DNA from: Escherichia coli
Lineage (GTDB): Bacteria; Pseudomonadota; Gammaproteobacteria; Enterobacterales; Enterobacteriaceae
Assembly: GCF_016026235.1 (NCBI RefSeq)
Contig: NZ_CP065613.1
DNA length: 64,000 nucleotides
Direction: 5' to 3' (one strand)
Shown here: piece by piece, positions 50,806 to 53,984 of the stretch
Layout: each line of letters begins with the position of its first letter
Position numbering within the stretch: position 1 is the stretch's first letter
The notes under the pieces: generated by a model
Database searches by the model: none
Seen by the model: only the letters and a program-made list of their open reading frames with translations
Told to the model about the DNA's origin: nothing
Translations under genes and position numbers: made by a program

Positions 50806-51231
50806 TCAATGCACAGCCAGAGTATTTCCTGCCGGACCACCACGATTCATCTGATCGAACAGAACGATCGCTGATGCAACGAAATCATCGATATCTTTCA
50901 CCAGCTGTTCCTGCGTCTCCAGCAGTTCCCGAAAATAAACTGAACTGTGGCTGCGCATTCGGGCCACCAGCGGAGGCGGCATTGCCTTTTCGATCGCTGG
51001 TAACAACGCCTGAATTTTTTTAACAGCATCAGGGGTGTCTTTCTCTATCCAGCGGAAAATTTTCTGGGTATTGCGAGCCAGGGCTTCCGGATGGCTGTCG
51101 TCGTACAGTTCAGGGAACGTCATCCCCAGTTCGAAATAAGTCCGGGCTATCTCAGCCGCCGGAACTTTCTCACCATCAGGATATGCCCATGCATTCATCG
51201 CCATACGGATGTGCTCATGCTTGATTTTCAT
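50806..51231 (-). CDS. YdaT-like protein (Rac prophage family)
   Basis: 141 aa, N-terminus MKIKHEHI as recalled for YdaT. Confidence 0.6.
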   Translation of the reverse strand: MKIKHEHIRMAMNAWAYPDGEKVPAAEIARTYFELGMTFPELYDDSHPEALARNTQKIFRWIEKDTPDAVKKIQALLPAIEKAMPPPLVARMRSHSSVYFRELLETQEQLVKDIDDFVASAIVLFDQMNRGGPAGNTLAVH

Positions 51232-51491
51232 GAATCACCCCCCGCCGATGGTTGTGTGTTAGCCTGAAACTCAGCAGGCAAGCCGTCAGTTGGGTTGGGG
51301 TAGGTTTTACTGTCAATCTCATGTGGGGTCACCACCCATCCCGTTGCTTCACACCAACGTAATATTTTTTCTCCTGTAAGTTTTGCACGCCCCGTTATAA
51401 CGTGGCTGACCATCCCCTGGGATGCGCCAACAATCTCAGCAAATGAACTCTGGGTTATATGAAAATGATGCAAATATTCTCCAAGATTCAT
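51228..51491 (-). CDS. Cro/YdaS-like HTH regulator
   Basis: 87 aa from ATG 51491, HTH (QSSFAEIVGASQGMVSHV), divergent from repressor. Confidence 0.65.
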   Translation of the reverse strand: MNLGEYLHHFHITQSSFAEIVGASQGMVSHVITGRAKLTGEKILRWCEATGWVVTPHEIDSKTYPNPTDGLPAEFQANTQPSAGGDS

Positions 51492-51527
51492 AATCCGCCC
51501 TATGTGATGTGTTACCAACGCATAATT

Positions 51528-51568
51528 AATAGCACTGTTATTTTTGAAAGTAAATAGCGATGCTATTT
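51528..51568. promoter_or_regulatory. putative operator sites between repressor and cro-like gene
   Basis: perfect palindrome AAATAGCGATGCTATTT at 51552..51568 plus half-site AATAGCACTGTTATT. Confidence 0.55.
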
Positions 51569-51602
51569 CAAAGTGATTAGCAATCTTATTAGAATTGGAT
51601 GT

Positions 51603-52103
51603 ATGAAAAGAAAATCACTGTCAGACACCGACCTCAACGCCGCCAGAAGACTGAAAGAAATCTGGATGGCAAAGAAATCTCAGTTGGGATTGACTCAGGA
51701 ACGTGCGGCGGAAATTATGGGGTTTTCAACACAAGGGGCGGTAAGTCACTACCTAAATGGTCAAACCCCACTAAACCTTGAGGCTGTTCTAAAGTTTGCT
51801 GGCTTACTGAAAGTTCCCCCTGAGTCAATCAGGCCAGACATGGCAGATTTGCTGCAAATTGCAAGGATGTATTGTCGAGAACCACAGCAAGATAACATAG
51901 TCGCATTACCAGCAGACACAGAACAAACAGAGGATGAACTACCGTTTGCCGTAGAGCCGATGGAACGAGATTTAATCCATACGTTCAGAGCTTTTCCGAA
52001 AGAAGATCAAGAACACATGCTTCAGGAGATGAAAGATAAAAAAGAATCAATGGATCGTACGGTTGCGCGGTGGTTAGCTGCACAAAAAGGCCGTCGCGCC
52101 TAA
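51603..52103 (+). CDS. XRE-family HTH repressor (RacR/PaaR2-like)
   Basis: 166 aa from ATG 51603, N-terminal HTH (LTQERAAEIMGFSTQGAVSHYL). Confidence 0.7.
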   Translation: MKRKSLSDTDLNAARRLKEIWMAKKSQLGLTQERAAEIMGFSTQGAVSHYLNGQTPLNLEAVLKFAGLLKVPPESIRPDMADLLQIARMYCREPQQDNIVALPADTEQTEDELPFAVEPMERDLIHTFRAFPKEDQEHMLQEMKDKKESMDRTVARWLAAQKGRRA

Positions 52104-52122
52104 ATCAGAGGAGATATGTAAA

Positions 52123-52317
52123 ATGAGTACAGTCCTTTCCCCAATGGTTTCAGAATTTGAGACAGTTGAGCAAGAAAATAGTTACAACGAATGGCTGCGG
52201 GCCAAAGTAGCAGCAAGCCTCGCGGATCACCGCCCGGCGATTCCGCATGATGAGGTAATGGCGGAAATGGAACAAATTATTGCCCAAATTGCTGCTGCAA
52301 CTCACAGAGGTGAATAA
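52123..52317 (+). CDS. type II antitoxin (PaaA2-like)
   Basis: 64 aa acidic protein immediately upstream of and overlapping ParE-like toxin. Confidence 0.65.
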   Translation: MSTVLSPMVSEFETVEQENSYNEWLRAKVAASLADHRPAIPHDEVMAEMEQIIAQIAAATHRGE

Positions 52318-52607
52318 TGTTACCCGTTTTATGGCTACCATCTGCTCGTGATGATTTGCGCCAGATCGTAGCCTACATAGCTAAAGAAAATCCCGCGGCA
52401 GCACGCAGAATGAAAATTCGAATTGAAACATCCGTTTTGCCGCTCACAGAGCATCCTTACCTGTATCCTCCAAGCGAGCGAGTTCTTGGTCTTCGTGAAA
52501 TTGTAACTCATCCTAACTACATCATCCTTTACCGAGTAACAGCATCAAGCATAGAAGTAGTAAATATTGTGCATTCTCGAAGACAGTATCCAGGCAAAAA
52601 CAGTTAA
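52317..52607 (+). CDS. ParE/RelE-family type II toxin
   Basis: 96 aa, RelE/ParE-like sequence features, 1-bp overlap with antitoxin. Confidence 0.7.
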   Translation: MLPVLWLPSARDDLRQIVAYIAKENPAAARRMKIRIETSVLPLTEHPYLYPPSERVLGLREIVTHPNYIILYRVTASSIEVVNIVHSRRQYPGKNS

Positions 52608-52622
52608 TTATTCCCGCCGACA

Positions 52623-52646
52623 GAACCACCTTAGGGTGGTTTTTTC
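52623..52646 (+). terminator. Rho-independent terminator after toxin gene
   Basis: GAACCACC-TTAG-GGTGGTT followed by TTTTTC. Confidence 0.65.
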
Positions 52647-52659
52647 TTGCTCCAACAAA

Positions 52660-52705
52660 AAACAATAGCGATGCTATTTACATCAAAAAATAATGATGCT
52701 ATTGT
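52660..52705. promoter_or_regulatory. putative OL operators / early-left promoter
   Basis: AATAGCGATGCTATTT palindrome repeated, with second half-site AATAATGATGCTATTG. Confidence 0.5.
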
Positions 52706-52882
52706 TTCAGGCGTCAACCCACCCCGCCCCACAGAATGCAGGGCAATACTTCGAGTTACCAGGTAGTGGTCAGGGGGTAAGTAGCCAGCCCGAGGCGTAA
52801 GAACATGACGGCAGGGTTCAACTTTAACTATGCAGCAGGTTTTTGTTCCGCTCCCCCGGCGTTAAGGGGAAATGAGGTCAAC

Positions 52883-53038
52883 ATGGATACTATCAATCTT
52901 GGCAACAACGAATCTCTGGTGTGCGGCGTGTTTCCCAACCAGGACGGCACGTTCACCGCGATGACGTATACCAAAAGCAAAACGTTTAAAACCGAATCTG
53001 GAGCGCGTCGCTGGCTGGAAAGAAATTCAGGTGGGTGA
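52883..53038 (+). CDS. DUF1391 small protein (YdfA/YdaF-like)
   Basis: 51 aa from ATG 52883; size and position match Qin ydfA. Confidence 0.55.
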   Translation: MDTINLGNNESLVCGVFPNQDGTFTAMTYTKSKTFKTESGARRWLERNSGG

Positions 53039-53757: not shown

Positions 53758-53815
53758 TTTCTGGTGACGTTTGGCGGTATCAGTTTTACTCCGTGACTGC
53801 TCTGCCGCCCTTTTT
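53758..53815 (+). ncRNA. dicF: DicF-like sRNA
   Basis: TTTCTGGTGACGTTTGGCGGTATCAGTTTTACTCCGTGACTGCTCTGCCGCCCTTTTT matches recalled DicF; lies just upstream of dicB. Confidence 0.6.
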
Positions 53816-53984
53816 AAAGTGAATTTTGTGATGTGGTGAATGCGGCTGAGCGCACGCGGAACAGTTAAAACCGAAAACAGTGTTATGGGTGGATTCTCTG
53901 TATCCGGCGTTAATTGTTAACTGGTTAACGTCACCTGGAAGCACCAGGCACCGCATCACAAAACTCATTGTTGAGGGCGCGATA

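What the first reader, a model, noticed from the sequence alone, without database searches (positions are those of the whole stretch)
51528..52705. Same AATAGC-N-GCTATT operator palindrome on both sides of the repressor-TA block
The 17-bp perfect palindrome AAATAGCGATGCTATTT occurs at 51552..51568 (between repressor and cro-like gene) and again at about 52663..52679, each with a nearby half-site. This matches OR and OL of a lambdoid immunity region and places the TA pair inside the repressor-controlled domain.
Basis: seen in the sequence. Interest (0 to 1): 0.45.

Follow-up and report, generated by a model that had tools for sequence, protein, structure and literature searches.

The report
Prophage repressor operators flanking a toxin-antitoxin
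The repeated palindrome is real and marks the two operator/promoter regions (OR and OL) of a lambda-like prophage switch whose repressor is co-transcribed with a ParE toxin-antitoxin pair, a layout already shown experimentally in E. coli O157:H7 prophage CP-933P; here it has a different, uncharacterised DNA specificity.

Summary
AAATAGC-GAT-GCTATTT lies at 51552-51568, and a 16/17 identical copy lies at 52663-52679. It is not a perfect palindrome: it has 7-bp arms around a non-symmetric 3-bp core. Each "half-site" is a full second operator 25 bp away (51527-51543 and 52688-52704). OR also has a weak third site (51575-51591).

The sites overlap the predicted divergent PR and PRM promoters and a PL promoter.

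The genes between the two clusters form a three-gene operon:
- a 166-aa repressor with a lambda-CI-like N-terminal domain and a DicA/PaaR-like C-terminal domain, and no S24 protease domain;
- a PaaA2-family antitoxin;
- a ParE toxin.

The operon ends at a terminator just before OL.

This is the paaR-paaA-parE immunity architecture characterised in CP-933P (Jurenas 2021), with another specificity. In four immunity types that share flanks, TA genes and repressor C-terminus, the motif shared by OR and OL changes together with the repressor and Cro DNA-binding domains. In distant relatives with other cargo genes, the AATAGC-N3-GCTATT pairs stay with the N-terminal domain.

Protein binding, transcription starts and looping are inferred, not shown. 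It is a new member of a known kind, of modest interest.

The parts
51527..51543 (.). OR1: TAATAGCACTGTTATTT, the operator nearest the cro-like gene. It overlaps the predicted PR extended -10.
   Evidence: 1 mismatch to AATAGC-N3-GCTATT. Its position is conserved in all type-A loci.
51552..51568 (.). OR2: AAATAGCGATGCTATTT, the best palindrome. It overlaps the PR -35 and abuts the PRM -35. Its centre is about -43 from the predicted PRM start.
   Evidence: Exact match. The arms are invariant in relatives while the core triplet varies (GAT/ACT/ATC).
51575..51591 (.). OR3 (weak): GATTAGCAATCTTATTA, lying between the -35 and -10 of the predicted PRM.
   Evidence: 3 mismatches. It is 23 bp from OR2. 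An equivalent weak site is present at the same place in L131 and L133. The assignment is an inference.
51526..51554 (-). Predicted PR: -35 TTTACT (51554-51549), 17-nt spacer, TGc-TATTAA (-10 at 51531-51526). It would transcribe the cro-like and ydaT genes.
   Evidence: Read from the sequence. The stretch is a position-for-position parallel of the PL segment: by my count about 34 of its first 43 positions match, and one search gave 36 matches over 58 compared. The consensus scan did not call it because position 6 of the -10 is A. No experimental TSS.
51567..51595 (+). Predicted PRM: TTCAAA-17-TAGAAT. There are 7 nt between the -10 and the repressor ATG at 51603, which predicts a leaderless mRNA.
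   Evidence: The -10 and the spacing are conserved in all type-A loci. The geometry matches the mapped leaderless PRM of CP-933P (and the L005 sequence).
51228..51491 (-). Cro-like (YdaS-type) HTH protein, 87 aa.
   Evidence: Pfam HTH_3, E 4e-4, below the curated cutoff. Its HTH 'SQGMVSHVITG' resembles the repressor's 'TQGAVSHYLNG' and changes together with the operator type.
50806..51231 (-). YdaT-family protein, the CII analogue.
   Evidence: Pfam YdaT_toxin, E 1e-9. Function taken from PMC9986795.
51221..51238 (.). YdaT-type inverted repeat TTGATTTTCATGAATCAC at the ydaS/ydaT junction, the equivalent of OM / the PRE region.
   Evidence: 1 mismatch to TTGATT-N6-AATCAA. A matching repeat is present at the same junction in the five other loci with a hit, which cover all four immunity types: TTGATTTTCATGAATCAA in L002, L004, L005 and L008, and TTGATTTTCATGATTCAC in L131. 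It was footprinted in CP-933P.
51603..52103 (+). Immunity repressor, 166 aa. It has a lambda-CI-like N-terminal arm and HTH domain (residues 2-82) and a DicA/PaaR-type C-terminal domain (about residues 106-162). It has no S24 peptidase domain.
   Evidence: PDB lambda CI N-terminal domain, E 1.3e-9. Pfam HTH_3 only. NCBIfam DicA C-terminal half, E 7.6e-8. The C-terminus aligns with PaaR2 and PaaR1-type proteins.
52123..52317 (+). PaaA2-family antitoxin, 64 aa.
   Evidence: Pfam PF21217 PaaA2, E 2.1e-21. NCBIfam TA_RelB_antitoxin.
52317..52607 (+). ParE toxin, 96 aa. Its start overlaps the paaA stop codon.
   Evidence: Pfam ParE_toxin, E 1.8e-17. PDB 5cw7 ParE2, E 6.7e-37.
52622..52650 (+). Intrinsic terminator that ends the repressor-paaA-parE operon.
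   Evidence: 9-bp stem followed by a T-run. A stem-loop plus T-run with a different sequence occupies the same place in the other immunity types (sequences).
52663..52679 (.). OL2: CAATAGCGATGCTATTT, overlapping the PL -35.
   Evidence: Exact arms and core, 16 nt identical to OR2.
52688..52704 (.). OL1: AAATAATGATGCTATTG. Its right arm supplies the TGc-TATT of the PL extended -10.
   Evidence: 2 mismatches. In L002, L003 and L091 the same position holds a perfect-arm site, AATAGCAGTGCTATT.
52677..52705 (+). Predicted PL: TTTACA-17-TATTGT with TG upstream of the -10. It would transcribe ydfA-ydfB-ydfC-DicF-dicB-DUF1482-exonuclease.
   Evidence: This is the position of PL933P, which is active and repressed about 100-fold by PaaR2 and YdaS in CP-933P. 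Downstream genes.

Best explanation
The five AATAGC-N3-GCTATT sites are the right (OR1-3) and left (OL1-2) operators of a lambda-type immunity switch in a lambdoid prophage integrated next to tRNA-Ser(CGA).

Proposed mechanism:
- Dimers of the 166-aa repressor bind the 17-bp sites through a lambda-CI-like N-terminal domain.
- At OR1/OR2 and OL1/OL2 they cover the -10 and -35 of PR (cro-like gene, ydaT, replication genes) and of PL (ydfABC, DicF, DicB, exonuclease).
- Repressor at OR2, centred at about -43, is placed to activate PRM. The weak OR3 would shut PRM off at high repressor levels.
- PRM gives a leaderless mRNA for repressor-paaA-parE that stops at the terminator just before OL. The TA pair is therefore lysogen-expressed cargo in the slot that rexAB occupies in lambda.
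- The DicA/PaaR-type C-terminal domain probably mediates higher-order oligomerisation and OR-OL looping over about 1.1 kb.
- The Cro-like protein, which has a near-identical recognition helix, competes for the same sites.
- Because there is no S24 domain, the switch would not be flipped by RecA-mediated cleavage.

What is shown here: the sequence, positions, homologies and comparative co-variation. What is inferred: binding, transcription starts, activation, looping and bistability, by analogy with CP-933P and lambda.
For: - Site statistics and the exclusive location of strong sites in the two intergenic regions.
- Promoter overlap: PL and PRM were called by the scan. The PR segment is a position-for-position parallel of PL.
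- Homologies: repressor N-terminal domain to lambda CI N-terminal domain including the N-terminal arm, E 1.3e-9; C-terminal domain to the DicA C-terminal half and to the PaaR2 and PaaR1-type C-termini; PaaA2 and ParE2; YdaT.
- Published experiments on the homologous CP-933P locus: PaaR2 and YdaS footprints over OR, leaderless paaR2, PL933P beyond parE2 repressed by both proteins, and PaaR2 reported there, from earlier work, to form octamers in solution.
- Co-variation: four immunity types share ydaT, the repressor C-terminal domain, paaA/parE and the PL leader. Each has its own HTH domains and its own motif shared by OR and OL: AATAGC-N3-GCTATT; AAAAACTGT/ACAGTTTTT; GTTTAGT; ACTTTTAAAGT.
- Within type A the arms are conserved while the core triplets vary.
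- Of 120 viral contigs with an exact site, only 7 have paired sites in two clusters, and exactly those 7 encode the repressor.
- In distant relatives (N-terminal domain 66-76% identical) with other cargo (HipA_2 plus DUF3037, or none), the motif pairs still sit at OR and at the downstream promoter.
- The Cro-like protein changes together with the operator type and shares a QGxVSH helix with the repressor.
Against: - There is no direct binding, TSS or expression data for this allele.
- PR has a weak -10 (TATTAA) and was not called by the consensus scan.
- OR3 is only a 3-mismatch site, and in L002/L003 it is weaker still.
- The best palindrome sits at the O2 position rather than O1, unlike lambda, so the order of occupancy may differ.
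- The bare two-copy palindrome is only moderately improbable by simulation.
- OR as a whole is highly conserved among type-A loci, so phylogenetic footprinting within the type has limited resolving power.
- Oligomerisation by the C-terminal domain is extrapolated from PaaR2. Only the PaaR2 N-terminal domain has a solved structure.
Confidence: 0.87

Rival explanations
1. The palindromes are autoregulatory operators of the toxin-antitoxin module, bound by the PaaA-ParE complex as in classical type II TA systems, rather than prophage immunity operators.
For: The sites flank a TA pair. Many type II TA operons are autoregulated through palindromes in their promoter (background stated in PMC8630535).
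Against: PaaA2-family antitoxins have no DNA-binding domain, and regulation in the homologous system is by PaaR2. The motif pairs persist in relatives where the TA is replaced by HipA_2/DUF3037 or is absent. The motif changes with the repressor and Cro HTH domains while PaaA/ParE stay homologous.
Confidence: 0.03
2. The similarity between the two regions is only a relic of duplication or recombination of a promoter segment (PR copied to PL). The palindrome has no operator function, or the second cluster is not a regulated promoter.
For: The PL and PR segments are parallel copies: 36 matches over the 58 positions compared, with the matches concentrated in the first roughly 43 positions. Simulation shows that a recurring 6-N3-6 inverted-repeat pair is not vanishingly rare (23 of 300).
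Against: A neutral duplicate would not keep its arms while its core triplets diverge. It also would not be replaced in concert at two non-contiguous places, OR and OL, in each of four immunity types. The homologous PL933P is an active promoter that is repressed about 100-fold.
Confidence: 0.04
3. Only one of the two HTH proteins uses these sites, for example the Cro-like YdaS homologue, while the 166-aa protein recognises a different, unnoticed element.
For: Both genes change together with the motif, so comparative data cannot separate them. In CP-933P the exact sequences recognised by PaaR2 and YdaS were left undetermined, and two overlapping repeat types were proposed.
Against: Both proteins carry a similar QGxVSH recognition helix. 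17-bp sites at 23-25 bp spacing fit a lambda-CI-type N-terminal domain (the lambda geometry is from established knowledge). The PaaR2 and YdaS footprints overlap in CP-933P. No other motif shared by OR and OL was found; the longest shared word is the operator itself.
Confidence: 0.06

Closest known systems
paaR2-paaA2-parE2 / ydaS-ydaT immunity region of cryptic prophage CP-933P, E. coli O157:H7 (Hallez 2010; Jurenas et al. 2021, PMC8630535)
   Same: - The gene order is the same: ydaT, then ydaS, then OR, then repressor-paaA-parE, a terminator, and OL/PL.
- The predicted geometry of a leaderless repressor mRNA is the same.
- The repressor C-terminal about 45 aa are homologous, as are PaaA, ParE (E 6.7e-37 to ParE2), YdaT with its OM site, and the PL leader (93% identical).
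- Neither repressor has an S24 domain.

   Different: - The repressor N-terminal domain is unrelated in sequence: lambda-CI-like here, against the PaaR2 N-terminal domain (PDB 7nkv) there.
- The repressor is 166 aa here against 123 aa.
- The Cro-like protein differs.
- The operators are AATAGC-N3-GCTATT here against GTTTAGT-type repeats there.
- There are 3+2 sites here, against four inverted repeats (plus three overlapping pseudosymmetrical operators) at OR and three operators at OL reported there.
- The host prophage here still carries integrase, Q and structural-size ORFs, so it may not be cryptic.
Bacteriophage lambda cI-rexA-rexB with OR/OL
   Same: - The repressor N-terminal domain is homologous, with about 41% identity over 81 aa by my count of identical letters in the alignment, including the basic N-terminal arm.
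- The operators are 17 bp.
- Centre-to-centre spacing is 25/23 bp here; lambda's is 24/23 (from established knowledge).
- OR2 is adjacent to the PRM -35, the repressor mRNA is leaderless, and cargo genes lie between the repressor and OL.
   Different: - There is no S24/LexA-like C-terminal domain, so no RecA-dependent cleavage is expected.
- The C-terminal domain is DicA/PaaR-like.
- OL has two sites, not three.
- The half-site sequence differs.
- The cargo is a ParE TA rather than rexAB.
- The CII analogue is YdaT.
- No N gene is evident downstream of PL.
Qin prophage dicA-dicC-dicB immunity/division-inhibition locus of E. coli K-12
   Same: The repressor C-terminal half matches the DicA model (E 7.6e-8). 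The PL operon is the dicB operon: ydfA (DUF1391), ydfB-like, ydfC-like, DicF sRNA (76.7 bits), DicB (E 5.7e-39).
   Different: The whole-protein score is far below the DicA cutoff (32 against 101 bits), because the N-terminal domain is lambda-CI-like. A TA pair is inserted between the repressor and the dicB-operon promoter. The Cro analogue is YdaS-like.
Rac prophage RacR / YdaS / YdaT
   Same: Both have a non-cleavable repressor divergent from ydaS-ydaT, with lethal or division-inhibiting genes under its control (PMC9986795 introduction).
   Different: No sequence match to RacR was seen in any search here. Rac has no paaA-parE cargo.

Membership tests
Lambdoid immunity region (OR/OL genetic switch) | Divergent repressor and cro-type genes separated by a short region with multiple operators overlapping divergent promoters | tested here: met
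   The intergenic region is 111 bp. It carries three sites at 25/23 bp spacing over the predicted PR and PRM.
Lambdoid immunity region (OR/OL genetic switch) | A second operator cluster with the same motif over an early-left promoter, downstream of the repressor operon | tested here: met
   OL2 and OL1 at 52663-52704 lie over TTTACA-17-TATTGT, just after the terminator.
Lambdoid immunity region (OR/OL genetic switch) | Operator motif specific to the immunity type (it changes together with the repressor and Cro DNA-binding domains) | tested here: met
   Four immunity types have four motifs, each shared by OR and OL. The motif follows the N-terminal domain in loci with other cargo.
Lambdoid immunity region (OR/OL genetic switch) | Repressor and Cro physically bind the operators and repress PR and PL; cooperative binding and looping | not testable with these tools
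   Only shown for the homologous CP-933P proteins.
Lambda CI / LexA-like cleavable repressors | C-terminal S24 peptidase domain with a RecA-stimulated self-cleavage site | tested here: not met
   Pfam finds only HTH_3 and HTH_31. The PDB match is confined to residues 2-90. The C-terminal domain matches the DicA C-terminal half instead.
Lambda CI / LexA-like cleavable repressors | Lambda-CI-type N-terminal HTH domain with an N-terminal arm | tested here: met
   phmmer E 1.3e-9 to 1lmb. MKRKSLS aligns with TKKKPLT.
paaR-paaA-parE three-component TA / CP-933P-type immunity module | PaaA2-family antitoxin followed by a ParE2-like toxin, in an operon behind a separate regulator | tested here: met
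   PF21217, E 2.1e-21. ParE_toxin, E 1.8e-17, and E 6.7e-37 to 5cw7. The repressor-paaA gap is 19 nt, and the paaA stop overlaps the parE start.
paaR-paaA-parE three-component TA / CP-933P-type immunity module | Regulator with the PaaR-type C-terminal domain (...AFPxEDQxxMLxEMKxKKESMxxxxARWLAAQKxRRA) | tested here: met
   Alignable C-termini in the window, L004 (PaaR1-type), L005 (PaaR2) and L008. blastn homology resumes at 51976.
paaR-paaA-parE three-component TA / CP-933P-type immunity module | PaaR2-type N-terminal DNA-binding domain and GTTTAGT-type operators (the same immunity as CP-933P) | tested here: not met
   PaaR2 matches 7nkv. The window protein matches lambda CI instead. The operators differ. 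The module is heteroimmune by prediction.
paaR-paaA-parE three-component TA / CP-933P-type immunity module | Leaderless repressor mRNA from PRM | tested here: inconclusive
   The -10 TAGAAT ends 7 nt before the ATG, as in CP-933P (6 nt), and this is conserved in relatives. No TSS data.
DicA-family repressors (NCBIfam PRK09706) | Full-length match above the curated cutoff | tested here: not met
   32.2 bits against a cutoff of 101. Only model positions 74-130 match.

The most novel reading that the evidence does not exclude
This would be an uncharacterised immunity specificity made by domain shuffling. A lambda-CI-type arm-plus-HTH domain is grafted onto the DicA/PaaR oligomerisation tail, giving a non-SOS-cleavable repressor. 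That repressor loops OR to OL around a ParE addiction module and runs a bistable, heritable switch like that of CP-933P. Here the switch sits in a prophage that still looks complete, so it may control real induction by a RecA-independent route. Related 244-255-aa proteins carry two different HTH domains on the same tail, which hints at dual-specificity repressors.
Probability: 0.4. Interest if true: 0.4.

Novelty: new member of a known kind. Interest (0 to 1): 0.25.

Why it matters
The result gives a precise, testable operator map for a second immunity specificity of the PaaR/DicA-type prophage switches: five sites, three promoters and one terminator.

It also shows by comparison that a change of immunity required concerted replacement of two separated segments. 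One segment is cro-HTH/OR/repressor N-terminal domain. The other is OL. The TA cargo and the repressor tail between them stayed conserved.

It supports the view that paaA-parE is lysogen-expressed cargo in the rexAB slot rather than a self-regulated TA. The operon this repressor silences encodes the division inhibitors DicF and DicB.

In practice it helps annotate many E. coli and Shigella prophage genes now labelled only 'helix-turn-helix domain-containing protein' or 'toxin YdaT'. It does not reveal a new kind of system.

Tried and rejected
- Scan of IMG/VR for AAATAGC-N3-GCTATTT. The pattern is too short for that database. 113 of the 120 loci returned are single chance sites. It was useful only after filtering for paired sites and for the repressor gene.
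- Motif at up to 3 mismatches across the window. Not enriched (33 against 26 expected), so weak matches elsewhere, such as 15762 and 58606, were dismissed as chance.
- The conserved 170-nt PL leader (52712-52880) as a structured RNA or put-like antiterminator. There was no Rfam hit. The MFE is worse than shuffles (z +2.04), and only 1 covarying pair was found. I rejected this idea and read the leader as the edge of the shared ydfA module.
- LexA box search for an SOS-controlled antirepressor. The one CTGT-N8-ACAG match is at chance level and not near a candidate gene. The induction route remains unknown.
- Phage isolate database. Only one partial hit (phage Evi, TA region), so there is no characterised phage with this immunity.
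- Literature search for the operator sequences: none found.
- PDB search for the Cro-like protein: no match.
- The upstream GTG start at 51573 for the repressor. I rejected it in favour of the ATG at 51603, because of the alignment with the lambda CI N-terminus, the PGAP annotation in L001 and the promoter geometry.
Full report
**1. Observation**

The sequence shows AAATAGCGATGCTATTT at 51552-51568 and CAATAGCGATGCTATTT at 52663-52679. The two copies share 16 identical bases.

The element is an inverted repeat of 7-bp arms around a non-symmetric GAT core, not a perfect palindrome. Its reverse complement differs at three positions.

Scanning the window for AATAGC-N3-GCTATT gives two exact sites, one 1-mismatch site (51528-51542) and two 2-mismatch sites (52689-52703 and 58606). 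A 3-mismatch site lies at 51576-51590.

Each is centred exactly 25 bp from the perfect site. OR has a possible third site 23 bp further on.

How far this exceeds chance:
- The 17-mer at up to 3 mismatches occurs 5 times against 0.23 expected, and 0 of 100 shuffles reach that.
- The loosest class (up to 3 mismatches on 12 specified bases) is not enriched: 33 against 26 expected.
- In 300 Markov simulations, a recurring 6-N3-6 inverted-repeat pair appeared in 23, and within 1.5 kb in 4.
- The bare pair is therefore suggestive rather than conclusive. The duplicated 25-bp partner geometry and the comparative evidence below settle it.
- The 58606 site lies beyond the integrase and tRNA-Ser, in host DNA. 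It is at chance frequency.

**2. Anatomy**

On the minus strand:
- An 87-aa HTH protein (51491..51228) is followed by a YdaT-family protein (51231..50806; Pfam E 1e-9).

On the plus strand:
- A 166-aa HTH protein (51603-52103).
- A PaaA2-family antitoxin (52123-52317; PF21217, E 2.1e-21).
- A ParE toxin (52317-52607; E 6.7e-37 to ParE2, PDB 5cw7).
- A 9-bp-stem terminator with a T-run at 52622-52650.

Promoters:
- The consensus scan calls TTCAAA-17-TAGAAT at 51567-51595. Its -10 ends 7 nt before the repressor ATG.
- It also calls TTTACA-17-TATTGT (with TG) at 52677-52705.
- Reading the minus strand of OR gives TTTACT-17-TGcTATTAA at 51554-51526. This stretch parallels the PL segment position for position: by my count about 34 of the first 43 positions match, and one search gave 36 matches over the 58 positions compared.
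- So O2 overlaps the -35 and O1 the extended -10 of both PR and PL. OR2 abuts the PRM -35, centred at about -43. OR3 lies inside PRM.

Downstream of PL lie ydfA (DUF1391), ydfB-like and ydfC-like ORFs, DicF sRNA (53759-53810, 76.7 bits), DicB (53985-54173), DUF1482, an 813-aa exonuclease and an integrase next to tRNA-Ser(CGA).

**3. Identity of the repressor**

- Residues 2-82 are homologous to the lambda CI DNA-binding domain, including the basic N-terminal arm (E 1.3e-9).
- Residues 106-162 match the C-terminal half of the DicA model (E 7.6e-8). They align with the C-termini of PaaR2 and related regulators.
- There is no S24 peptidase domain.
- The protein is 99% identical to Shigella sonnei entries.
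- Host flanks are about 98% identical to E. coli.
- Only one of 5,426 complete E. coli genomes carries this allele at about 99%. 71 genomes carry the region at 80% coverage or more; the best of the others listed are about 81-82% identical.

**4. The known system**

The PaaA2 hit led to the paaR2-paaA2-parE2 locus of CP-933P. Jurenas et al. (PMC8630535) showed the following by EMSA, DNase I footprinting, 5' RACE and gfp fusions:
- PaaR2 (the CI analogue) and YdaS (the Cro analogue) bind overlapping operators in the 97-bp paaR2-ydaS region.
- paaR2 mRNA is leaderless.
- A PL-type promoter with three operators lies beyond parE2 and is repressed about 100-fold by both proteins.
- PaaR2 lacks the RecA-cleavage motif, and the paper cites earlier work reporting that it forms octamers in solution.
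- The locus is bistable.

YdaT binds TTGATT-N6-AATCAA at the ydaS/ydaT junction (PMC9986795). The window has TTGATTTTCATGAATCAC at exactly that junction, 51221-51238.

The L005 protein from EDL933 is PaaR2 itself (PDB 7nkv).

**5. Comparative tests**

*(a) Within the same immunity type.* The loci are L001-L003, L006 and seven IMG/VR contigs, 80-100% identical in the repressor. All sites sit at the same positions. The arms are conserved while the central triplets vary (GAT, ACT, ATC, ATT, AGT). Over 22 distinct 17-mers, half-site positions A2 A3 T4 A5 are invariant apart from two T's at position 3. G6 is kept in 30 of 44 half-sites and C7 in 35 of 44.

*(b) Across immunity types.* Loci that share ydaT, the repressor C-terminus, paaA/parE and the PL leader fall into four types. 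Each has different repressor and Cro HTH domains. In each type a different motif is the longest word shared by OR and OL:
- AATAGC-N3-GCTATT
- AAAAACTGT/ACAGTTTTT
- GTTTAGT/GTTTAATAAAC (the published CP-933P operators)
- ACTTTTAAAGT

Against types B and D, blastn homology to the window is lost only over 51303-51975 (cro HTH, OR and the repressor N-terminal domain); within the HSP that resumes at about 51976, the OL segment itself carries a different motif. Against type C (CP-933P) there is no homology across 52565-52714, the OL region. Two non-contiguous segments have therefore been replaced in concert.

*(c) Motif to context.* Of 120 viral contigs with an exact 14-base match, only seven have paired sites in two clusters about 1.1 kb apart. 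Exactly those seven encode the repressor, the Cro-like protein and the TA.

*(d) Protein to motif.* There are 244-255-aa relatives whose first domain is 66-76% identical to the window's N-terminal domain. They carry an extra HTH domain and the same tail. They sit in loci with different cargo (HipA_2 plus DUF3037) or none. Those loci still have two or three AATAGC-type sites between the cro-like gene and the repressor, and two more over a promoter downstream of the cargo. The motif follows the DNA-binding domain, not the TA.

*(e) The Cro-like protein.* It changes together with the motif. Its helix SQGMVSHVITG resembles the repressor's TQGAVSHYLNG, as expected if both read the same half-site.

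**6. Mechanism**

The best-supported reading is a lambda-type switch:
- Repressor dimers at O1/O2 of OR and OL occlude PR and PL.
- Repressor bound at OR2 may activate the leaderless PRM transcript, which carries repressor-paaA-parE to the terminator before OL.
- OR3 would give negative autoregulation.
- The DicA/PaaR tail may mediate octamerisation and a 1.1-kb OR-OL loop.
- The Cro-like protein competes for the same sites.
- YdaT acts at the PRE-like site.

The TA pair is thus lysogen-expressed cargo in the rexAB slot, not a target of repression. All binding, start-site, activation and looping steps are inferred from homology and geometry.

The induction route is unknown. The repressor has no S24 domain, and no convincing LexA box was found.

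**7. Rivals**

- TA autoregulation is contradicted by the lack of a DNA-binding domain in PaaA, and by the motif persisting where the TA is absent.
- A neutral promoter duplication is contradicted by conserved arms with variable cores, and by the concerted replacement at OR and OL.
- Whether one or both HTH proteins bind cannot be resolved computationally.

**8. Novelty and score**

The architecture and its logic are published for CP-933P, and lambda and Qin dicA/dicB are classical parallels.

What is new here is the specificity:
- a lambda-CI-like N-terminal domain on a DicA/PaaR tail;
- AATAGC-N3-GCTATT operators, in a 3+2 arrangement;
- no paper in the searchable library holds these operator sequences, and no sequenced phage isolate carries the region.

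I rate it a new member of a known kind, with interest 0.25.

Noticed in passing
window 51221-51238: An inverted repeat, TTGATTTTCATGAATCAC, at the ydaS/ydaT junction matches the published YdaT operator OM (TTGATT-N6-AATCAA). A matching repeat is present in the five other loci with a hit, which cover all four immunity types, so unlike OR and OL it is not immunity-specific.
   Followed up: partly
window 53759-53810 and 53985-54173: DicF sRNA (Rfam 76.7 bits) and DicB (Pfam E 5.7e-39) lie in the operon driven by the predicted PL. The OL operators therefore silence two cell-division inhibitors. A sub-threshold STnc100-like hit follows at 53822-53962 (36.5 bits against a gathering score of 47).
   Followed up: partly
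window 52712-52880: The roughly 170-nt leader between PL and ydfA is 93% identical to CP-933P and conserved in all immunity types. It shows no RNA-structure signal (MFE z +2.04, one covarying pair, no Rfam hit). It looks like the mosaic boundary of the shared ydfA module, starting about 10 bp after the PL -10.
   Followed up: yes
L131 3501-4235; L133 3501-4268 (proteins P0013-P0023): 244-255-aa relatives of the repressor carry two different HTH domains on the same DicA/PaaR tail. The first is lambda-CI-like; the second resembles the 132-133-aa type B and D repressors. They may be dual-specificity repressors or intermediates of domain shuffling.
   Followed up: partly
L131 4287-5860: In a related immunity region, the cargo slot between the repressor and OL holds a HipA_2-family gene plus a DUF3037 gene instead of paaA-parE. 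In L133 and L134 the slot is empty. The slot is a variable cargo position.
   Followed up: no
window 51603-52103 against 51228-51491: The repressor and the Cro-like protein share a similar predicted recognition helix (TQGAVSHYLNG against SQGMVSHVITG), although they are otherwise dissimilar.
   Followed up: partly
window 43365-43674 and 43873-44562: Four tRNA genes (Met, Lys, Thr, Gly) lie just downstream of the Q antiterminator gene inside the prophage.
   Followed up: no
window 57155-58312: The integrase gene abuts tRNA-Ser(CGA), which marks the prophage end. Large ORFs from about 17.7 kb to 58.2 kb suggest a full-length lambdoid prophage rather than a short cryptic remnant.
   Followed up: no
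window 51100-52900 against E. coli genomes: This exact immunity allele is rare in complete E. coli genomes. One of 5,426 carries it at about 99%, and 71 carry the region at 80% coverage or more; the best of the others listed are about 81-82% identical. The repressor is 99% identical to Shigella sonnei proteins, so the window may come from Shigella sonnei.
   Followed up: partly
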